Assembly: GCA_029856105.1 (NCBI GenBank)
Contig: JAHQWH010000085.1
Coordinates: forward strand, 1 to 38,134
From: Promethearchaeia archaeon
GTDB taxonomy: Archaea; Asgardarchaeota; Lokiarchaeia; Sigyniarchaeales; SOKP01
DNA: 38,134 nucleotides
Reading direction: 5' to 3'
Shown here: in pieces, positions 754-11,088 of the stretch
Layout: each line of letters starts with the position of its first letter
How positions within the stretch are numbered: position 1 is the first letter of the stretch
The notes under the pieces: generated by a model
Told to the model about the DNA's origin: nothing
Databases searched by the model: none
Seen by the model: the letters and a program-made list of their open reading frames with translations, nothing else
Made by a program: the position numbers and the translations under genes

Positions 754-1824
754 ATGAATGTGGAAAAGGGATTAATAAACGCAATTGTTTACACAGAGAT
801 ACACGACGCAATAGGACCAAATCCTATTTATTGGGCACCTTCTGATTTACCGGAAAACATTAGAATGCTAGTTGGAATTAAAACAGTTACAATCCTTACA
901 GGAGATCAAGGAATCACCCCAGAATCTCTCCTTATTATCCCCTTCCCTTCTTTAAGGCTAAAAGGGTTAATAAGATATATTGAAAGGGAAGATGAAACCC
1001 GAAGAGGGGGGTACGCTAGGTCAGCTATTACTTTCTTGTTTAAGGAAGAGGAGGATATTATTTTCTACAAATATATGGTTTACCTGAAAGCCCCTTTCAA
1101 CGAAACGGCGAGAAAAATTAAAGAATTAGAAAACCAACAGGCTGATAGTGAAAGTATTTTTGAGGAGATAAAATTATTAGGAGATAGCGTTAGTAAGTTA
1201 CTCGAAGATTATAGAAGTAAAGAGATTGCCCCACATTCTAGTGAAGAATTTCCCGAACATAGAGATAAAAAAATAGACATTATTAAGTTTAAATTTAAAT
1301 TAGTAGTTGTAGGAGACCCTGGCGTAGGAAAAACATCAACTATTCTCCGATTTTCCGATAATGCATTTCTTAGAACTTACATTCCAACCATGGGGGTCAA
1401 TATCACGGAGAAAAGCTTCCGCGTTAAAGAGGACGTCCTTGAAGTGATATTATGGGATTTAGCTGGGCAATCAAAATTCCAAACGATGAGAAGACACTTT
1501 TATCAAGGCTCAGAAGCTATTATACTCATTTTCGATTTGACGAATCCAATATCCTTTAAAAGTATAAAGAAGTGGTACGACGATGTAATAAAGAATATGG
1601 ATAAGCAGCCTAAAATGATAGGTTATATTTTTGGAAACAAAAGCGATTTGATGGACCAAAGAAAGGTTCAAGAAAGTGAAGGGTTAGCGTTAGCTAAGGA
1701 GTTAAATCTTGAATACATAGAAACTAGCGCTCTGACAGGAAGCAACATCGAATACGCTTTTTATAAAATAGCAGAAGCAGTAATTGAAACACATTTGGAG
1801 AAATATAAAGGTAATAAAAATTAA
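754..1824 (+). CDS. Longin/uDENN-like domain fused to a Rab-like small GTPase
   Basis: C-terminal half has G1 GDPGVGKT, G2 PTMG, G3 WDLAGQ, G4 NKSD, G5 ETSAL. N-terminus AIVYTEIHDAIGPNPIYWAP resembles the start of NPRL2/uDENN longin domains. Confidence 0.88.
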   Translation: MNVEKGLINAIVYTEIHDAIGPNPIYWAPSDLPENIRMLVGIKTVTILTGDQGITPESLLIIPFPSLRLKGLIRYIEREDETRRGGYARSAITFLFKEEEDIIFYKYMVYLKAPFNETARKIKELENQQADSESIFEEIKLLGDSVSKLLEDYRSKEIAPHSSEEFPEHRDKKIDIIKFKFKLVVVGDPGVGKTSTILRFSDNAFLRTYIPTMGVNITEKSFRVKEDVLEVILWDLAGQSKFQTMRRHFYQGSEAIILIFDLTNPISFKSIKKWYDDVIKNMDKQPKMIGYIFGNKSDLMDQRKVQESEGLALAKELNLEYIETSALTGSNIEYAFYKIAEAVIETHLEKYKGNKN

Positions 1825-2411: not shown

Positions 2412-3302
2412 TTAAATAAGAGCCGCCATATCCTTACAATTATATGCAATTCTCATTAAATCTCTAATTTTTTCCTTTTCTTTAAATCCTAAATCATCTA
2501 TTAGCAAATTTCCTTTTTCTATCAACTTATCTCTTTTTTTCCATACTTTATGTGCTAATTCTAAAGCTTTTTTCTGATAAGCAATCATTACATCATTAAA
2601 ATATTGCTTGATCTCTGTAAAATATTCTTTAATTTCTTCATTTAAATGCAAATCTCTTAGAATTGATCCAATATCTTCAATCTTTTCACAAAACATGCGA
2701 TAATCCATGGCTTCTAAAGGTGTAAAATCTTTATCTTCCGTAACATACACGCCTGTTCTAAGATAAGTCCTTATATGGATTACTAAAATGAAGTAAAATT
2801 TCCGTAATTGGTTAAAATTATAATTTAAATCTTCATATTTATTAGTTTCAAGGTTATCAAACATATCCAAAATAAGATATAGTAAACGTTGAATTAACTT
2901 ACGAGTAGGGATTTGTTTATAGCCAAAATTTTGGACAACTATCCTCTGAGGTTGTTCTTCAGTTATTTCCGTGTTAGGAAGACCATTAACAAACCACCTT
3001 ATTTCATCTCTTATACTCTCTTCAAATGGTTTATCTGAAAGTATTACTATATTCGATTGACCAGAAAGGCATTCTTTTACAATTTCTCGAGCAATATAGG
3101 GGTTTGAGTGAAGAATTATCTCATCAGTAGATTGATCTACTTCCTGTCTATGTTTTGGTGAAATTAATAAAGTTCCATCACTGCGAACAATGATCAATAT
3201 GGAAGATTTCTTACTTAAATTAAAATTTTCGACCCACTTTTTGGGTAGGCTAACAAAAAAAGAACCGCTAATCTTCTGCAAATTTCTATAGGTTCTTTCC
3301 AT
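2412..3302 (-). CDS. AbrB-domain / PhoU-family regulator (archaeal phosphate-uptake-regulator type)
   Basis: N-terminal RNLQKISGSFFVSLPKKWV AbrB/SpoVT motif followed by PhoU-like helical repeats. Confidence 0.8.
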   Translation of the reverse strand: MERTYRNLQKISGSFFVSLPKKWVENFNLSKKSSILIIVRSDGTLLISPKHRQEVDQSTDEIILHSNPYIAREIVKECLSGQSNIVILSDKPFEESIRDEIRWFVNGLPNTEITEEQPQRIVVQNFGYKQIPTRKLIQRLLYLILDMFDNLETNKYEDLNYNFNQLRKFYFILVIHIRTYLRTGVYVTEDKDFTPLEAMDYRMFCEKIEDIGSILRDLHLNEEIKEYFTEIKQYFNDVMIAYQKKALELAHKVWKKRDKLIEKGNLLIDDLGFKEKEKIRDLMRIAYNCKDMAALI

Positions 3303-3909: not shown

Positions 3910-4953
3910 ATGCTTATGTTATCTATATTAGGTGGACTTATTGGTTCTTCTACATTGGGCGTGCTAATAGCATTTTGTAGTTTTGGTATATATTTTTACT
4001 ATATTTCGAGAAAAACAAAGGTTAGACTTCTCTCTATTATGGGGATAAGTCTATTTTTTATTGGATTCTCTTATTTGGGAATTTGTGTCGACTTTTTATC
4101 AATTCTTATAACAGGAAACAACATAAATGTATTTTTACTTGCTTTTTTAATTTGGCCATTTGTGCCTGTTGTTTACGTCTTTGGATCTTATGTAACTGCT
4201 GAATTATTGATACCTAAGATAAAAAAACTCTACATGATCATAATTATTGCTTTAGCTTTAATTTTTGAGCTTAGTATTTTTTTAGATACATTAGGAAACA
4301 TTACGTTTATTGAACCTACCCCTCCTGGTGCTGAATTGATCGATGATAGTCTTATTACAGGGTCAATTGCTGGTCTTATCGGAACTATTTTTACGTTCTT
4401 AGGAATTTTTATATCTGGGATCGGCATGCTTATTAAAGGGTATCGGTTATCAGGGGTAGTTAGAAAGAAATATCATCAGTTAGCAATAGGATATTTAATT
4501 CTTAATGTATCGGCTTTGTTAGATTTTTTGGGTATCGCCGAGATCGTTGCAATAATTCGGATTGCCTCATTAAGTGCCGTTTGGTTTTTCTATTTAGGTT
4601 TAAGGGAAGAACCTGAAAAGCGTGAGAAGAAAGAAAAGAAAAAAGAGATGAAAATTGAGGAATCCTTGTTTAGATTAACTAAAAGACCTGCGCAAATAAC
4701 TGAAGAAGAAGTTACTTATTATCGAGAACAAAAAATATGTATGATATGTAAAGGTAAAGTTAGCGGATTTAATATTTTTTTATGTCCTAATTGTGAAACT
4801 ATTTATCATGAAGAATGTGCTCGTGCTTTAAGTAATGCTGAAAATGCGTGTTGGGTTTGCAATGGGCCTATAGATAATTCAAAACCTTCAAAACCATTTA
4901 AAATTGAATCACCCGATAAGGAACAAATAGGAATAGTAAAACCTATAAAATGA
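3910..4953 (+). CDS. Multi-pass (~7 TM) membrane protein with C-terminal C4HC3 RING-like zinc finger, putative E3 ligase
   Basis: About seven hydrophobic segments, a charged linker, then CMIC-x11-CPNC-x4-H-x2-C-x10-CWVC; GGAGG SD; adjacent to Ubl/E2/E1/JAMM genes. Confidence 0.8.
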   Translation: MLMLSILGGLIGSSTLGVLIAFCSFGIYFYYISRKTKVRLLSIMGISLFFIGFSYLGICVDFLSILITGNNINVFLLAFLIWPFVPVVYVFGSYVTAELLIPKIKKLYMIIIIALALIFELSIFLDTLGNITFIEPTPPGAELIDDSLITGSIAGLIGTIFTFLGIFISGIGMLIKGYRLSGVVRKKYHQLAIGYLILNVSALLDFLGIAEIVAIIRIASLSAVWFFYLGLREEPEKREKKEKKKEMKIEESLFRLTKRPAQITEEEVTYYREQKICMICKGKVSGFNIFLCPNCETIYHEECARALSNAENACWVCNGPIDNSKPSKPFKIESPDKEQIGIVKPIK

Positions 4954-5164: not shown

Positions 5165-5422
5165 ATGAAAATATCGGTTGAAGATACAAGAACTGGGAAG
5201 GTTATCAAGCTTGATGTTAAAGAACATCATATAATTGAACGGATAATTGATATTGTAATAAAACACATGGGAATAATTAGCTCTGAGCAAAGGTCATATA
5301 CATTAGTTCTTGAAGATAAGGAACTACCAAGCACAATTACCATTGCTGATGCAAAACATAAATTTGGGCTAAAAGATAATGCCAATTTAGCATTATGGGC
5401 GAGGGTAGTGGGCGGATATTAG
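5165..5422 (+). CDS. Ubiquitin-like protein ending GG-Y
   Basis: MKISVEDTRTGKVIKLDV aligns with ubiquitin MQIFVKTLTGKTITLEV; beta-grasp length; C-terminus LWARVVGGY. Confidence 0.88.
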   Translation: MKISVEDTRTGKVIKLDVKEHHIIERIIDIVIKHMGIISSEQRSYTLVLEDKELPSTITIADAKHKFGLKDNANLALWARVVGGY

Positions 5423-5496: not shown

Positions 5497-6063
5497 TTAA
5501 TCATCCACTACCAGAATATCATCTATTTCTTCTTCCTCTTCTTTATCGCTACTTTTAAATTCATTCATAAGCAATTCAATAGAATGCGATTTAAAATATT
5601 CAGCTGACTTCAAACAAAGATCATAATTAAGAGGATCATCAGGATTTGGATTCTCGACTAATTTTTTTAGTGCTTTGATTGAAGTTTCCAAATCTGATAG
5701 TCTTGACCATTTTTTTAGAATATTAAGGCAGATATAACCTGTACCAGATTCATTTAAAGTTCGAATATCAACTGGATGGATATTTGGATGGAAAATATTC
5801 GAATACCAAGAGAAATCTATTCCTCCTGGATATGGAAATGATCTATTTAATTTTAGAAAAATGCGATGAGATTTCTTTGGACTTAAATTTATTCCTTCCT
5901 TGCTATGATCTTGCACAAATCCTAAAGCTTCAATGTTTATCCAAAATTCAACATTACTTTCATGCCATTTAATTGATTCATCTTCTATTAAATTTGATTT
6001 ATTTAAAATATTCATTTCGTTATTTATTCGATCTTTCCATATCTCATAAGGTAGTTCTGGCAT
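5497..6063 (-). CDS. Ubiquitin-conjugating enzyme E2 (UBC fold)
   Basis: FPY, IFHPNI, catalytic ICLNIL..W, NPNPDDPLN, acidic C-terminal tail. Confidence 0.92.
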   Translation of the reverse strand: MPELPYEIWKDRINNEMNILNKSNLIEDESIKWHESNVEFWINIEALGFVQDHSKEGINLSPKKSHRIFLKLNRSFPYPGGIDFSWYSNIFHPNIHPVDIRTLNESGTGYICLNILKKWSRLSDLETSIKALKKLVENPNPDDPLNYDLCLKSAEYFKSHSIELLMNEFKSSDKEEEEEIDDILVVDD

Positions 6064-6128: not shown

Positions 6129-7019
6129 TTAATCTTTTTTATTGGACTTTATGAAGGAACAGATCCAACAATTAGGATCCTTTGCCTTCTCAATTATTTT
6201 AAAGCTGTTGGTAAGTCCATTATAATTCAATTGTTTTCCAATAAGTGGTTTTCCTATTTGGGAATCCCATATTCCATACTCTTTAAAATAATCAATACCT
6301 AATACGAATTTTAATACTTGTTGCGATTGAATACCTCCTATTATTGAAGTTGTAGTTATAAACGATGCGATTTTACCCACAGTTTCTCCATCTTCAGTAT
6401 TTAGTTCTTTACCTGTACATGAAAACTTTTTCCACATCAAATCTAAATCTTTATTAGAGATTCCGCATTGTAAGCATGCAGAGTTTTTATCTTTAGAATA
6501 AACCGCTTGTACAGTCCCAAAATAACCATCAATTCCAGAATCAATAAATGGAATGCCAAAATAATAGGAATAATTATTTGCTTCTAAACGTGCCTCAATG
6601 TTATCCAAACAGGAGCAAATAACATCGTTTTGTTCATAAATATTTTTTTCTACTTTATTTAAATCTTCTTTAATGGTAATAAATTTTACTTCTGGATTTA
6701 TATCTCTGCATGCTTCTTTAATTACATCTGCCTTATATTCATTCTTCTCAGCTGATTTCGAATTAAATAGCACACATCTGTTTAAATTGGATAAATCAAT
6801 AAAATCATAATCGATTAAAGTAATAGTTCCTATACCTGACAAAACTAAATTTTTTATGACTTCATTACCCGTTGCTCCAGCACCAATTACCATTACTTTT
6901 GAATTACGGATTTTATTTTGATCCCATCCTTTTATTCGTTTTTGACGATCATACTTATCTGATTCTATGGAATCAATATTCTTTACTTCAATATCTATTG
7001 AATCGTTTTTTTCATTCAT
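6129..7019 (-). CDS. Ubiquitin-activating enzyme E1 (ThiF/UBA family)
   Basis: YDRQ, GAGATG, DYDFIDLSNLNR, CLDNIEAR, zinc pairs CLQC and CWIC, candidate catalytic Cys in FSCT. Confidence 0.92.
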   Translation of the reverse strand: MNEKNDSIDIEVKNIDSIESDKYDRQKRIKGWDQNKIRNSKVMVIGAGATGNEVIKNLVLSGIGTITLIDYDFIDLSNLNRCVLFNSKSAEKNEYKADVIKEACRDINPEVKFITIKEDLNKVEKNIYEQNDVICSCLDNIEARLEANNYSYYFGIPFIDSGIDGYFGTVQAVYSKDKNSACLQCGISNKDLDLMWKKFSCTGKELNTEDGETVGKIASFITTTSIIGGIQSQQVLKFVLGIDYFKEYGIWDSQIGKPLIGKQLNYNGLTNSFKIIEKAKDPNCWICSFIKSNKKD

Positions 7020-7049: not shown

Positions 7050-7547
7050 TTATTTTGAGGATATTATCGCATTACTTATAGCTTTATATCCTAATCCTGA
7101 TTTTTTATCGAGCGTGAAAAATTTAAATTCATCATTGATTGGATCTACAACTAATGCTACTTGATATGATTCCGGAAAAAAAAACTCTTGGGTGTGTAGA
7201 TCTGTACTTGATAAAAAACAACCAAAATTGGGATGTGAATGCCACCATCCAACTATCCTCAAACTATCATTTTTTTTAAGATTTTTTAACTTTTGAAACT
7301 CTTTTTCATATTCCCCTGCAGTTCCTTCAATTTGAGAAGTTGAAAATTGATGACTATTAACCGCATTATCAATAAACAATTGTTCTTCAATAATTATATA
7401 TAAATCATTCTTCCACTTTAAGATATTTCCAATTAAATAGCCAAAAATTTCCTTGCTTGAATCTCTACTTAAATTTATAATTTGTTCTAAGGTATTGTCG
7501 TAAATGTAGACCGGAAATATAAAATCGTTAGTTTTTGACATAAACAT
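7050..7547 (-). CDS. JAMM/MPN+ metalloprotease (Rpn11/CSN5-like deubiquitinase)
   Basis: KEIFGYLIG and [18 protein letters not shown] motifs. Start placed at ATG 7547 (or 7541) rather than 7658, which overlaps the upstream gene. Confidence 0.92.
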
Positions 7548-7572: not shown

Positions 7573-10221
7573 TTAACGCGTACTTTGAATAAAATGACGC
7601 TTTTTATTTTTTTCAATTTCCCACTTTTTACGCTCAGAACGAAGTTTAAATAGGTCAAGATCTTTATAAATTAAACTTTCTTCTCTGGGAGGTACAATTC
7701 TTTCGATTCTATCTTTTTCTGGAGTATATATAAGAGATTCTCCATATTCTGCTATATTTACAAAAAAGCAATAAGCATAAATAGATCTACGAGCATCAAA
7801 ATGAGCAGCCTTAAAATCAGCAGTTACTGGCGTATAAGCTGGATTTAAAATTAAGTCAATCGGGGGTTCGAAATTTTTTAATTCTACTCTTAAATCCATA
7901 TCAAGAAAATCCCGGCATATTATAATTGCTATTCTTCCATATTCAGTATTGCAAACAATAGTTTTACGTGGTAACGTACCAACATTTATCCCTTCTTCAA
8001 ATTTTTTACTTTGAAAATGTATTATTGCTGGAATATGTTTCTCTTGCTCCCAAAGAATTCCTTCTGGTCCAATTACTTTGCAAACATTACGATTATTTTC
8101 TATGTTATGGAACGAACCGGGAATAATGTACATTTCATATGATTTTGCTAAATCTGAAAGTTCTTCTAAAATTTTACCATAATTTAGATCAATAGCCATT
8201 TCTGGGAAGACTAAAATGTTGATTCCTTTGTTATAAGCTTGCTCTATCATCATTCTAACCTTTTTCTGGACTAAATCAATTTTATCTACTTTTATTCCGA
8301 TCAAACCCGATCCTTTTTCTTCGTAAAATTCACTCAATAAATCACCAGAAGATGATACTCCTATTTGAGCTATACCTATCCTACATTCCCTTTTTTGGAT
8401 CTTAGAATATTTTTGCATTAAATCTTTATAAAGCAATTTATATTTCTTTTTGGTACTTGAAATATCCTTTATCTTTCTACTCGTCTTCTCAGATAAAGTG
8501 GGTGGTAATATCTTTAATGTGCTTTTAGATAGTGAGGGTTCACTAATAGTATCTAGGGCAGAAATAATAATTTTTTCTTCCTTTTTCACCAACTCTAAGC
8601 GTTCCATTACTTCTTTTTCTTTATCTTTATACCCTGCTTTTTCAAATAATTGGGCTGCTGATTTAAGCATGCCCGACCCTATATCTAATAGTCTTTTCTT
8701 TTCATCAAGTTTAAATTCTTCATCTGCACTAATAATGTACCATGTTGCATCGAAAAATGTTGATGTTGCGAGAGCCCAATCTGCTTCATTTTCAAAACCA
8801 CCTTTATGATATGAATTTGCGGCATTTCTCAACATCATTTTAATTTCAGGATAATATCCCGCTTTTTTAGTTTTATCAGTTGATTTATCAAATTTGGATC
8901 CTAATTCTAAGGCTTGGCAGAATGCAGCATTTCCTAAAGCTAATGATTTATATTTCAAATCAGTGAAATAATCGCTTGCTTTATTAAATAAGTCAGCGGC
9001 TTCAGCATACTGATTAGGGTCTTTACATTCTTCAGCTAATTCCATACATTCCCAAGCCTTGCAGAGATGGAAAATTGCATTCAATTCATCGTTATCTTGT
9101 ATATTTTCTATATGGGAAAAAAGTTCTTTAAATTGATCTGCTGCACAAGAAAATCTCTCTGCTGCGGAGACATAATCTCCTTGCTTTTCTAAAATTTTAG
9201 CTGCTTCAATTTGATCCCAGATTACAGAATAATCTATATTGATCTCCTCTATATTGGGAGTTTCTTCTGATTTAATTTGTTCAACTGAATTGACCTTAGT
9301 TTCATCCTGTTTTATATTTACATAATTTTTTTCTTGCTTATCTAAAACAAAATTCTTTAGAATTTCCCTTAAAATTGAAATTAATTTATTTTTAGAATCG
9401 TCTTTAATTGCTGAAAATCCAAATGTCTTAATATTAAATGTTTCTTCAATTTTCTGAGGTTTAAACGCAGTATCTTCAAGATCTTGAAAATTTGCAATTA
9501 AATAAAGATCAGCTTTCCGAAACTTGGCCTTTAATTTGGAAATTAACTCTTGAGTTCTACCCAAGTTACTTGCTGCAGAATTAGATACAATAAGCACTAT
9601 ATCGCTCGATGTTAATAAATCTTTATAAAGGTTAGAACTATTTGCTAACTTACTTAAATCGACTTCTCTGATTGAACATTCTTTAATCCCATTCAAATTG
9701 TTGATTTTAATTGATTTATTAACGATTTCATTTAATTCGTCATCTAATTCTATTATAGTTTCTCCAGGTAAAATTTCAATAATTGTTGTTTTACCTACAC
9801 CAAATTCTCCAGTCATTAAGATTTTGGGAGGTATGAAAATGTTTTCTTCAACATATTTATCAAATTCTTTAAACACACTAATATCTCCAGACCAATTTTC
9901 GAGATATCGTTTATATTTGTTTATGAATTCATTCTTCATTAAATCCACTTTACTTTTAGCTTCATCTTCCAAATCATCTTTATCTATTACAATAATAAAA
10001 ATTAAATTATAATCAACAGAATATGAATAAATAAAATTAAATTCCCTAAAGAGAAGAGCTTTAACTTCACCACCCTTTATTTCTTTAGCAAAATCACTAA
10101 ATGCTTTGAGGAAACCACTAAGTATACCCTCATCGAAAGCAATTTTTCTAAAAAAACTTTTAGAATAACAAAGGATTCCTCCGAAACCAATTATGAATAA
10201 CTTTAATATCACTAAATCCAT
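7573..10221 (-). CDS. Fusion protein: longin-like domain, degenerate small GTPase, TPR/SNAP-like helical repeats, nitrilase (carbon-nitrogen hydrolase) domain
   Basis: Longin-like N-terminus; P-loop [10 protein letters not shown]4-like ANFQD, G5 SAI; Ala-rich helical repeats; nitrilase triad VFPE / QEKH / IICRDF. Confidence 0.85.
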
Positions 10222-10509: not shown

Positions 10510-11088
10510 TTATACTTCTCTACTCATTTTTTGAAGTTCTAGTGATAATTTTTTGTGCTTATAATATAATTCATCTATTATTGCTTGAAATGCTTCAGTT
10601 ACACCCTCACCTGTTAAAGCTGAAGTTATGAAATAACCTAAAAATTCTCTTTTTCTAATTAATTTTAACACTTTTGACTCGTTAAGAATATTCTTATCAA
10701 TCAAATCTGCTTTGTTACCCAGAAGGATAATAGGGATCTTTCCACAGAATTTTTTAATATCATTATGCCAACTGGAAATATGTTTAAAACTGTCTTTTCC
10801 AAGTTGATTATCCTCAAGAGAATATACGATGATGGCAGCTCTACTTTCTTGATAAAATGAAGGGCGTAGAAAAAAGAATTCATCTTGTCCTGCTATATCC
10901 CAGAAATAAAGTGTACAAGTATCACCCTCAATATTTTGAGTATACTTAGAAAACTGGGCACCGATGGTTCGGATATAATTCGTTTGAAAACTTCCTTGAG
11001 TAAATTTCTTAATCAATGATGTTTTACCTACCATTCCATCGCCAATTACCGTTATTTTAAAAACAAATTCGCCTTTTGTGCTTGACAT
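10510..11088 (-). CDS. Rab-like small GTPase
   Basis: GDGMVGKT, RTIG, WDIAGQ, NKAD, TSAL; no C-terminal prenylation Cys. Confidence 0.93.
   Translation of the reverse strand: MSSTKGEFVFKITVIGDGMVGKTSLIKKFTQGSFQTNYIRTIGAQFSKYTQNIEGDTCTLYFWDIAGQDEFFFLRPSFYQESRAAIIVYSLEDNQLGKDSFKHISSWHNDIKKFCGKIPIILLGNKADLIDKNILNESKVLKLIRKREFLGYFITSALTGEGVTEAFQAIIDELYYKHKKLSLELQKMSREV

What the first reader, a model, noticed from the sequence alone, without database searches (positions are those of the whole stretch)
7573..10221. Longin-pseudoGTPase-helical repeat-nitrilase fusion at the head of the JAMM-E1-E2 operon
Seen: four modules, with an intact nitrilase Glu-Lys-Cys triad. The G-domain keeps its P-loop but has no DxxG and has NFQD instead of NKxD. 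Known: yeast Nta1, the N-terminal Asn/Gln amidase of the N-degron ubiquitin pathway, is a nitrilase-superfamily enzyme. Inference: the domain may be a protein-directed amidase that creates degrons or edits conjugates, with the helical repeats recruiting substrate and the G-domain acting as scaffold or altered-nucleotide switch. I do not recognise this architecture from any characterised protein.
Basis: partly seen in the sequence, partly recalled or inferred. Interest (0 to 1): 0.85.

Follow-up and report, generated by a model that had tools for sequence, protein, structure and literature searches.

The report
Longin-GTPase adaptor fused to effector nitrilase
In this Asgard archaeon the first gene of an accessory ubiquitin-like operon, a longin plus switch-less GTPase-like adaptor, is fused to an intact amide-cleaving enzyme of the type bacteria use as an anti-phage effector, which ties an enzyme family of unknown substrate to ubiquitin-like tagging.

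Summary
Window 7573-10221(-) is one 882-aa ORF with four modules: longin, an Arf-like G domain (P-loop and NFQD kept, no DxxG), TPR-like helices, and a nitrilase with invariant Glu674/Lys728/Cys769. It lies 25 nt upstream of JAMM-E1-E2.

- The longin-G part is normally a separate ~300-aa protein. It is the first gene of longinG-JAMM-E1(-E2) operons in this archaeal family.
- The helices plus nitrilase are the conserved C-terminal 560 residues of an Asgard family of ~850-1285-aa TPR-nitrilases. These often sit in tandem arrays and have variable N-termini.
- In related genomes such nitrilase genes lie next to the same operon without being fused.
- The nitrilase is not Nta1-like. It matches the RT- and CARF-associated effector nitrilase models (DRT1/UG5 type). 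An ordinary nitrilase from the same genome matches none of them.
- Like DRT1 it has helical repeats before the nitrilase and a conserved C-terminal tail. The tail (FIQSTR) is invariant, even in bacterial relatives.

Best reading: a gated effector amidase whose variable sensor arm was replaced by the Ubl-operon adaptor. The substrate is unknown.

The fusion is not an assembly artefact. I found no published description. Earlier follow-ups of this scan reached the same reading on other genomes.

The parts
7573..10221 (-). Whole fusion gene, 882 aa (P0001). The probable true start is the GTG at 10212.
9838..10221 (-). Longin domain, residues 1-128 (FUZ/MON1-type).
9337..9837 (-). Arf-like G domain, residues 129-295. 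It has the P-loop (9787-9810), NFQD (9481-9492) and SA, but no DxxG.
9232..9336 (-). Variable acidic linker at the fusion joint, residues ~296-330. It carries insertions and deletions among homologues.
8542..9231 (-). TPR-like helical scaffold, residues ~331-560. It is shared at ~50-60% identity with the long ~1275-aa paralogues.
7576..8445 (-). Nitrilase-superfamily domain, residues ~593-882. Catalytic codons: Glu674 at 8200-8202, Lys728 at 8038-8040, Glu743 at 7993-7995, Cys769 at 7915-7917.
7576..7593 (-). Invariant C-terminal tail FIQSTR, residues 877-882. It is the candidate trans-acting active-site lid.
   Evidence: DRT1 precedent
7050..7547 (-). JAMM/MPN+ protease, ~165 aa counted from the ATG at 7547. 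It starts 25 nt after the fusion gene's stop.
6129..7019 (-). Small E1 (ThiF), 296 aa.
5497..6063 (-). Divergent E2 (UQ_con, 39.5 bits), 188 aa.
5165..5422 (+). Ubl, 85 aa, ending in GG-Y. It is convergent with the E2 gene.
3910..4953 (+). 347-aa protein with a C-terminal RING-like zinc finger (residues 274-318). It is syntenic in the related loci.
10510..11088 (-). Ras/Rab-type small GTPase, 192 aa. It lies directly upstream in four of the five fused loci.

Best explanation
The gene is a lineage-specific fusion of two Asgard building blocks.

(1) The N-terminal 300 residues are a longin domain packed on an Arf-like G domain. The G domain keeps its nucleotide-binding motifs (G1, G4 as NFQD, G5) but has lost the DxxG switch II. 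In sister genomes this module is a separate ~300-aa protein and the first gene of an accessory longinG-JAMM-E1-E2 operon. That operon faces a convergent Ubl and RING-finger gene.

(2) The C-terminal 560 residues are the conserved half of a multi-copy Asgard TPR-nitrilase family: a proximal TPR-like scaffold, a nitrilase and an invariant FIQSTR tail. In that family the N-terminal arm is the variable part.

The fusion replaced the variable arm with the operon's adaptor.

Inferred mechanism. The nitrilase is an active Cys amidase of the effector clade found in DRT1/UG5 and CARF-nitrilase proteins. As in DRT1, it probably works as an oligomer whose C-terminal tail closes or completes a neighbour's active site. 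The N-terminal module decides when and where the enzyme is switched on. Here that places it under the control, or at the site, of the accessory Ubl-conjugation system.

The catalytic domain and tail are conserved from myxobacteria to Asgard. The substrate is therefore more likely a ubiquitous cellular amide than this operon's Ubl.

Shown: modules, catalytic residues, homology, gene linkage, origin of the fusion. Inferred: gating by oligomer and tail, coupling to the Ubl system, type of substrate.
For: Origin of the two halves:
- More than 200 clusters of stand-alone ~300-aa homologues, most of those listed at 47-57% identity to residues 1-300.
- All 7 stand-alone orthologues found in the sampled genomes of family f1 are followed at once by JAMM-E1. 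Public contigs L006 and L008 show the same.
- The C-terminal part is 58% identical to the last 620 residues of 1275-aa proteins.
- The nitrilase family is in 39 of 151 Asgard genomes, with up to 8 matches per genome and tandem arrays of 3-4 genes.
- Identity among long paralogues rises from 32% in the first 350 residues to 48%, 62% and then 69% in the nitrilase.

Repeated linkage to the operon in family f1:
- The fused gene is followed by JAMM-E1-E2, directly in three genomes and after three inserted genes in G008.
- Long forms lie divergently next to the operon in two genomes (G065, G121).
- A nitrilase pseudogene remnant lies beside the operon in G099.

Tree: four fused forms make one clade (100/97). 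It is nested (97/90) among f1 long forms, including those adjacent to the operon.

Effector clade:
- P0001:590-882 hits PADLOC CARF_nitrilase (2.9e-16), RTasNitrilase (1.9e-13), RT_UG5-nitrilase (1.2e-9) and Drt1a (3e-3).
- The genome's ordinary CN hydrolase (Pfam 124 bits) hits none of these at E<=1.
- 14 of 14 nearest out-of-family relatives hit the same models.
- The DRT1 structure 9yfd is joint best PDB sequence hit (6.7e-6). It gives the longest single alignment, from the Glu motif to within 4 residues of its C-terminus.

Catalytic tetrad and tail: the four catalytic residues are invariant in the 40-sequence Asgard alignment. F, Q, S and T of the tail are invariant in all 32 sequences of the alignment that includes bacterial fusions.

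DRT1 precedent (PMC13275509): alpha-helical repeat plus nitrilase, a tetrameric nitrilase core, and a conserved C-terminal tail that acts as a lid.
Against: - No direct evidence of oligomerisation or of a lid role here. The monomer model is poor for the last 85 residues (pLDDT <50).
- The Ub linkage is seen only in one archaeal family, whose genomes are related and so not independent. In families f7, f12 and f22 the nitrilase genes have no Ub genes within ~8 kb.
- The nitrilase core is unusually conserved (60-70% identity across families). That fits a housekeeping enzyme better than a fast-evolving immune effector.
- I found no RT, CARF or NTPase partner, no mobile-element context and no conserved defence neighbours.
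- One fused lineage (G008 type) groups elsewhere in the nitrilase tree (95/95). The history may therefore involve two fusions or a swap of the C-terminal half.
- The substrate of the whole clade, DRT1 included, is unknown.
Confidence: 0.55

Rival explanations
1. Protein-directed amidase inside the Ubl pathway. The nitrilase would deamidate N-terminal Asn/Gln (Nta1-like), edit Ubl conjugates or isopeptides, or transfer the Ubl through its Cys thioester. The TPR helices would bind the protein substrate.
For: - The enzyme is fused to, or adjacent to, the operon in several configurations.
- TPR scaffolds usually bind peptides.
- Nitrilase chemistry proceeds through an acyl-Cys intermediate, as in Nta1 and Lnt (established knowledge of the superfamily).
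Against: - There is no special similarity to Nta1.
- The same catalytic domain and tail occur in Asgard families with no Ub genes nearby and in bacterial alpha/beta-hydrolase fusions.
- The operon already encodes a JAMM isopeptidase.
Confidence: 0.2
2. An ordinary metabolic amidase. The fusion and the adjacency would be neutral accidents of gene order in one lineage, with no functional coupling to the Ubl system.
For: - The nitrilase core is highly conserved.
- The best fold matches are small-molecule enzymes such as Nit2, D-carbamoylase and beta-ureidopropionase.
- Linkage is absent outside family f1.
Against: - The linkage persists through at least three different gene arrangements.
- The fusion is kept intact with invariant catalytic residues in ~35 clusters at 62-91% identity.
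- The domain matches effector-nitrilase models, and the genome's metabolic nitrilase does not.
- Tandem multi-copy arrays with variable N-termini are unusual for a metabolic enzyme.
Confidence: 0.12
3. The fusion is an assembly chimera or a decaying pseudogene.
For: The genome is a MAG of 238 contigs with 6% contamination.
Against: - The ORF is intact.
- Contigs from four runs of four studies bridge the junctions. All four runs are flagged as possible sources of this DNA.
- The same architecture occurs in four other genomes and in many independent metagenome contigs.
Confidence: 0.01

Closest known systems
Nitrilase modules of class-3 UG/Abi reverse transcriptases: DRT1 (UG1, PDB 9yfd) and UG5/DRT11
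   Same: - Specific HMM matches to the RT-associated nitrilase models, with a negative control.
- DRT1 is joint best PDB sequence hit and gives the longest alignment.
- The layout is the same: helical repeats, then nitrilase, then a conserved C-terminal tail.
- The catalytic Cys is needed for DRT1 and UG5 function.
   Different: - There is no reverse transcriptase, no protein-primed DNA and no known phage link.
- The N-terminal partner is TPR helices or, here, a longin-G adaptor.
- The family is archaeal, multi-copy and strongly conserved.
- Similarity to DRT1 itself is weak (28.5 bits).
CARF-nitrilase and stand-alone RT-associated nitrilases (PADLOC models PDLC01989 and PDLC03804); nSTAND3-nitrilase fusions
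   Same: These are the best HMM hits for the domain (2.9e-16 and 1.9e-13). They share the principle of a sensor module joined to a nitrilase effector.
   Different: The sensor here is neither CARF nor a STAND NTPase. No cyclic-oligoadenylate or CRISPR context was found.
Yeast Nta1, the N-terminal Asn/Gln amidase of the N-degron pathway (PDB 5b62)
   Same: It belongs to the same superfamily and shares the Glu-Lys-Cys chemistry. It has a thematic link to ubiquitin.
   Different: It is not a close relative: Z 11.2 at rank 44 by fold, and absent from profile hits at E<=1. Nta1 is a single-domain enzyme without a TPR, longin or G module.
Longin-plus-GTPase pairs of eukaryotes: SRX-SRbeta of the SRP receptor, Fuzzy-Inturned or Mon1-Ccz1 with Rab, and Asgard Rag-like fusions
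   Same: The longin fold matches the CPLANE complex (7q3d_C) and VAMP7. The G domain matches Arf, and SRbeta at Z 14.2. Longin-GTPase fusions are known Asgard signature proteins.
   Different: - Here the two are on one chain, with longin at the N-terminus.
- The G domain lacks DxxG and has NFQD.
- The module heads a Ubl operon.
- I found no published mention of this.
Archaeal and bacterial E1-E2-JAB operons: the Caldiarchaeum/Asgard ubiquitin operons, and CBASS Cap2/Cap3 and Bil systems
   Same: The same enzyme set is present (JAMM, ThiF-type E1, UBC-type E2, a Ubl with a GG tail, a RING finger). In the bacterial systems such operons regulate or act as immune effectors (my own knowledge, not tested here).
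   Different: - This operon is a second, divergent set. The same genome has a more canonical E1(410 aa)-E2-JAB(272 aa) operon on another contig.
- It is headed by a longin-G adaptor.
- A defence role is not shown.

Membership tests
Nitrilase (C-N hydrolase) superfamily | Sequence match to the family model above its curated cut-off | tested here: met
   PF00795 scores 24.8 bits against a cut-off of 23.2, over residues 653-862. Homologues reach 38 bits.
Nitrilase (C-N hydrolase) superfamily | Catalytic Glu-Lys-Cys triad plus a second Glu | tested here: met
   Glu674, Lys728, Cys769 and Glu743 are invariant in alignments A1 and A3.
Nitrilase (C-N hydrolase) superfamily | Alpha-beta-beta-alpha sandwich fold | tested here: met
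   Foldseek finds Nit2 (2w1v) at 4.2e-7. VIA-align gives Z 14.3, with 206 residues aligned at rmsd 4.1 A. The last 85 residues of the model are unreliable.
RT/CARF-associated effector nitrilase clade (DRT1, UG5, CARF-nitrilase) | Specific match to the clade's models that ordinary nitrilases do not give | tested here: met
   The domain hits CARF_nitrilase at 2.9e-16, RTasNitrilase at 1.9e-13 and RT_UG5-nitrilase at 1.2e-9. The genome's ordinary CN hydrolase hits none at E<=1. 14 of 14 nearest outgroup proteins hit them.
RT/CARF-associated effector nitrilase clade (DRT1, UG5, CARF-nitrilase) | Fusion or adjacency to a reverse transcriptase, CARF or STAND sensor | tested here: not met
   There is no such domain in the protein or in the 40 loci examined. 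It is therefore not a DRT or CARF system, only a relative of their effector domain.
RT/CARF-associated effector nitrilase clade (DRT1, UG5, CARF-nitrilase) | Helical-repeat region before the nitrilase and a conserved C-terminal tail (lid), as in DRT1 | tested here: inconclusive
   Both features are present. The alignment to DRT1 runs to its residue 1225 of 1229. Homology of the helices and the lid role were not shown.
RT/CARF-associated effector nitrilase clade (DRT1, UG5, CARF-nitrilase) | Anti-virus or abortive-infection function | not testable with these tools
   This needs genetics in a host. There is no tractable Asgard system for it.
Nta1-type N-terminal amidase | Closest similarity to Nta1 among the nitrilase branches | tested here: inconclusive
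   5b62 gives Z 11.2 at rank 44, below about 20 other nitrilase-fold chains. No phylogeny including Nta1 sequences could be built.
Nta1-type N-terminal amidase | Amidase activity on N-terminal Asn/Gln of peptides | not testable with these tools
   This is a biochemical assay.
Small GTPase (Arf-like) superfamily | G-domain fold with the G1 P-loop | tested here: met
   Arf1 scores Z 18.2. GxxxxGKT is at 138-145, and G138, G143 and K144 are invariant.
Small GTPase (Arf-like) superfamily | G3 DxxG (switch II) and G4 NKxD | tested here: not met
   The G3 region is REVDLSKL without Gly, and D188 is variable. G4 is NFQD, with N, Q and D invariant. It is thus a pseudoGTPase by motif. Nucleotide binding was not tested.
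Longin domain | Five-stranded sheet in beta-beta-alpha-beta-beta-beta-alpha(-alpha) order that matches known longins | tested here: met
   Z is 14.7 to 7q3d_C and 14.3 to 4afi_B. Atlas FUZ/MON1/HPS1 longin clusters give TM 0.84-0.87.

The most novel reading that the evidence does not exclude
The Asgard TPR-nitrilases would be oligomer-gated immune or stress effectors. In this lineage an accessory ubiquitin-like conjugation system would control one of them through a longin-pseudoGTPase adaptor. That would be an archaeal counterpart of E1-E2-JAB control of effectors in bacterial CBASS or Bil systems, built from the trafficking-type parts (longin, Arf-like G domain, RING, UBC-type E2) that eukaryotes later used for signalling.
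Probability: 0.2. Interest if true: 0.85.

Novelty: new variant of a known kind. Interest (0 to 1): 0.62.

Why it matters
Three things follow if the reading is right.

- It defines a new, conserved first component of an accessory Asgard Ubl operon: a longin plus switch-less G domain. [quoted passage not shown]
- It extends the effector nitrilase clade of DRT1, UG5 and CARF proteins into archaea, in a form without a reverse transcriptase. The substrate of that clade is an open question in phage-defence research (PMC13275509). The soluble, strongly conserved Asgard enzymes could be an easier route to finding it.
- The fusion works as a Rosetta stone. It predicts a functional partnership between the stand-alone adaptor, the Ubl enzymes and the TPR-nitrilases, and pull-downs and enzyme assays can test that directly.

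Tried and rejected
There is no result.
- No RNA holder was listed for the gene, so nothing can be said about expression.
- The C-terminal model (residues 320-882) has mean pLDDT 68.7, and its last 85 residues are below 50. I therefore did not analyse the pocket or the lid.
- Bro1 lead: ALIX and Brox Bro1 domains top the VIA list for the helical part (Z 14.4-14.6, rmsd 5.4-6.4 A). They are about tied with generic TPR proteins (Z 12.7-13.5). Pfam finds TPR_12 in 25 of 27 members and MIT in 21 of 27, and no BRO1 match among the families listed. I treat the region as TPR-like only.
- A search for conserved neighbours of the medium and long forms found only synteny among close relatives, plus HEAT, DUF362 and metabolic genes.
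- Nta1 is not listed in the PDB profile searches at E<=1, nor in the Foldseek list shown.
- DRT1 was not in the top 50 of either fold search on the poor C-terminal model.
- Literature searches for Asgard with nitrilase, C-N hydrolase, longin or JAB found no description of this protein or operon head.
- Single origin of the fusion: the longin-G tree needs two changes of the label, but starred branches force only one. The nitrilase tree separates the G008-type fusion from the others. This stays unresolved.
Full report
**What is there**

Window 7573-10221 on the minus strand is one open frame of 882 codons. Homologues begin at its fourth codon, a GTG. It is followed on the same strand by three genes:
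- a JAMM protease, whose ATG at 7547 lies 25 nt after the stop;
- a 296-aa ThiF-type E1;
- a 188-aa UBC-type E2.

Convergent with the E2 gene are an 85-aa Ubl ending in GG-Y and, upstream of it, a 347-aa protein with a RING-like zinc finger. A Ras-family GTPase gene lies 288 nt upstream of the fusion gene. The names that sources give to the closest homologues are all Asgard, of Loki, Hod, Thor or Hermod type.

**The four modules**

I modelled residues 1-310 on 60 homologues (mean pLDDT 84.6, pTM 0.79).
- Residues 4-129 have the longin order of strands and helices. They match a chain of the human CPLANE complex (7q3d_C, Z 14.7, rmsd 2.5 A, 123 residues) and the VAMP7 longin domain (Z 14.3). They also match Atlas clusters named as the first longin domain of FUZ/MON1/HPS1 (TM 0.84-0.87).
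- Residues 129-295 are a small-GTPase fold closest to Arf (Z 18.2; Foldseek ~1e-8; profile against PDB sequences 3e-4).
- Across 60 fused and stand-alone homologues the P-loop Gly/Lys and N, Q and D of NFQD are invariant, and an SA motif is kept. The G3 region has no DxxG, and its Asp varies.

By its motifs the domain should still bind a guanine nucleotide but lacks the usual switch II. That is an inference.

Residues ~331-556 form nine long helices. Pfam calls the region TPR-like in 25 of 27 family members.

Residues ~593-862 pass the Pfam CN_hydrolase cut-off. They match Nit2 by fold and carry invariant Glu674, Lys728, Glu743 and Cys769.

**Not an artefact**

The junction stretch is held in full by runs from five studies. 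I laid contigs from four of those runs. They bridge both module joints, and one 3-kb contig covers 7400-10190 without a difference. All four runs are flagged as possible sources of this DNA, so they are not fully independent. The same architecture is found in four other genomes and in about 35 protein clusters at 62-91% identity.

**Where the two halves come from**

The N-terminal 300 residues have more than 200 clusters of stand-alone ~300-aa homologues, most of those listed at 47-57% identity.
- On two public contigs such genes sit directly before JAMM and E1, and on one of them before E2 as well.
- I sampled 151 Asgard genomes. Orthologues at 40% identity or more occur only in the window's own family (coded f1). 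All seven stand-alone ones are followed at once by JAMM-E1.
- More distant paralogues (35% or less), found in 98 of 151 genomes, are not followed by JAMM.

The C-terminal 560 residues are 58% identical to the last 620 residues of 1275-aa proteins. This nitrilase family occurs in 39 of the 151 genomes, in four main families, with up to eight matches per genome and tandem arrays of three or four genes. It comes in three forms:
- long, about 1265-1286 aa;
- medium, all-helical, about 836-909 aa;
- fused to longin-G, 868-882 aa, in f1 only.

Among the long forms, identity rises from 32% in the first 350 residues to 69% in the nitrilase. The N-terminus is therefore the variable part, and it is the part the longin-G module replaces.

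**Linkage to the operon is repeated, not a one-off**

Within f1 I found these arrangements:
- the fused gene followed by JAMM-E1-E2, directly in three genomes (G000, G071, G150) and after three inserted genes in G008;
- the fused gene next to only the Ubl and the RING protein (G121, contig C95);
- three tandem long forms divergent from JAMM-E1-E2-Ubl (G121, contig C33);
- a longinG-JAMM-E1-E2 operon divergent from two long forms (G065);
- a nitrilase pseudogene remnant beside the operon (G099).

In the nitrilase tree, four fused forms make one clade (100/97). It is nested (97/90) among f1 long forms that include the operon-adjacent ones. This fits a fusion that arose from a neighbouring gene.

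The G008-type fusion groups elsewhere in that tree (95/95). In the longin-G tree a single origin is neither forced nor excluded. One fusion plus a later exchange, or two fusions, both remain possible.

Outside f1 the nitrilase genes have no Ub genes within about 8 kb and no conserved neighbours.

**Which nitrilase it is**

Sequence similarity to ordinary nitrilases is weak, and Nta1 shows no special affinity.
- Nta1 is absent at E<=1 from two profile searches of PDB sequences.
- By fold it ranks 44th (Z 11.2).

The domain instead matches PADLOC's models for defence-linked nitrilases: CARF-fused 2.9e-16, RT-associated 1.9e-13, UG5 1.2e-9 and Drt1a 3e-3.
- As a control, the same genome's ordinary CN hydrolase (124 bits to Pfam) matches none of them at E<=1.
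- An exhaustive search of 1.8 billion representatives gave the nearest out-of-family relatives. All 14 that I tested hit the same models.
- Some of these relatives are fused to nSTAND3 NTPases or to HEAT repeats.
- With a broader nitrilase-only profile, the DRT1 structure 9yfd is joint best hit (6.7e-6). It gives the longest single alignment, running to four residues from its C-terminus.

Mestre et al. already noted that class-3 UG/Abi hydrolases form a clade apart from other nitrilases (PMC9226505).

**How it probably works**

DRT1 is built as reverse transcriptase, alpha-helical repeat and nitrilase. Its nitrilase domains form the tetrameric core. A conserved C-terminal tail swaps onto a neighbouring protomer's active site as a lid. 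The substrate is unknown (PMC13275509). In UG5 the nitrilase Cys is required for defence (PMC13436386).

The Asgard family has the same order of helices, nitrilase and tail. The tail FIQSTR is invariant in every form. Its F, Q, S and T are invariant even in bacterial alpha/beta-hydrolase-nitrilase fusions at ~40% identity, for example from Sandaracinus amylolyticus.

From this I infer the following.
- The enzyme is an oligomer-gated Cys amidase.
- Its N-terminal arm sets the time and place of its activity.
- In this gene that arm is the adaptor of the accessory Ubl operon.
- The catalytic domain and tail are shared with bacteria and with Asgard lineages that lack the linkage. I therefore favour a ubiquitous substrate over the operon's Ubl.

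None of these steps is shown.

**The operon is an accessory one**

The genome carries two further E2 genes with much stronger Pfam scores. One of them lies in an E1(410 aa)-E2-JAB(272 aa) operon on another contig. The E2 in the window is the most divergent of the three, and its Ubl has no second copy in the genome. The system in the window is thus a second, specialised Ubl set.

**Novelty and earlier scan notes**

Full-text searches found no description of this protein, of the longin-G operon head, or of Asgard TPR-nitrilases.

After reaching the above I looked up the scan's own notes. Follow-up agents working on other genomes reported the same reading, namely a Ub-operon longin-GTPase adaptor fused to a DRT/CARF-type nitrilase (e1-5573024, e1-3048457; e1-5663622). 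These notes agree with my results but are not independent evidence.

- the negative control for the PADLOC assignment;
- the N-to-C conservation gradient;
- the invariance of the tail into bacteria;
- the nesting of the fused clade among operon-adjacent long forms;
- the contig-level check of the junctions;
- the second, canonical operon in the same genome.

Noticed in passing
L082 (own genome, contig C18:49483-52896): A second and more canonical Ub-type operon: E1 (410 aa), E2 (175 aa, 93 bits to UQ_con) and JAB (272 aa). A lone third E2 lies on contig C48 (L083).
   Followed up: partly
L064:1501-2517 (G109, same genus): A 338-aa gene with only the G domain plus a ~160-aa TPR stub sits before JAMM-E1, with no longin or nitrilase. 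It may be a truncated derivative of the fusion. ORFs of 416-417 aa starting with the G domain occur in G121 and G141.
   Followed up: partly
L060:2626-2862 (G099:C189:4682-4918): A fragment of the nitrilase C-terminus (68% identity) with two in-frame TAA stops lies divergently beside a longinG-JAMM-E1 operon. It looks like a decayed neighbour copy.
   Followed up: no
L010 and L020/L011: There are tandem arrays of four (1278-1281 aa) and three (1275-1277 aa) long TPR-nitrilase paralogues. In the three-gene array (L020) the N-termini are only ~30% identical.
   Followed up: partly
P0286 (Sandaracinus amylolyticus), P0282, P0279: These are ~570-aa bacterial alpha/beta-hydrolase-nitrilase fusions. 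P0286 and P0282 are 43-44% identical to the Asgard domain and P0279 49%. P0286 and P0282 align through the last residue of the query domain and, in A5, keep F, Q, S and T of the C-terminal tail.
   Followed up: partly
P0324, P0328, P0318: Distant relatives of the nitrilase domain are fused to nSTAND3 NTPases, or to TrmB plus HEAT repeats plus a weak BRO1-like region. These are sensor-effector architectures typical of conflict systems.
   Followed up: no
window 8962-9060 (residues 388-420): There is a weak MIT-domain match in the helical scaffold (E 0.0027). 21 of 27 family members give MIT matches, the best at 6.5e-7. This may only be cross-talk within the TPR clan.
   Followed up: no
window 7825-8140: Run X4 carries a cluster of 17 single-base differences inside the nitrilase domain. 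Contigs of three runs break at ~7926-7955. This is likely strain-level variation or a second paralogue collapsing there.
   Followed up: no
window 2412-3302 (-) and 754-1824 (+): One is a 296-aa protein with an N-terminal MazE/AbrB-type domain. The other is a 356-aa protein with a Ras-family G domain at residues 182-343 after a ~180-aa N-terminal extension. Both lie next to the Ubl locus.
   Followed up: no
L019:12914-13789 (G008) and L008:8026-8943: Extra stand-alone longin-G paralogues sit directly before JAMM. One is in a genome that also has the fused gene, and one is in tandem with a second copy.
   Followed up: partly
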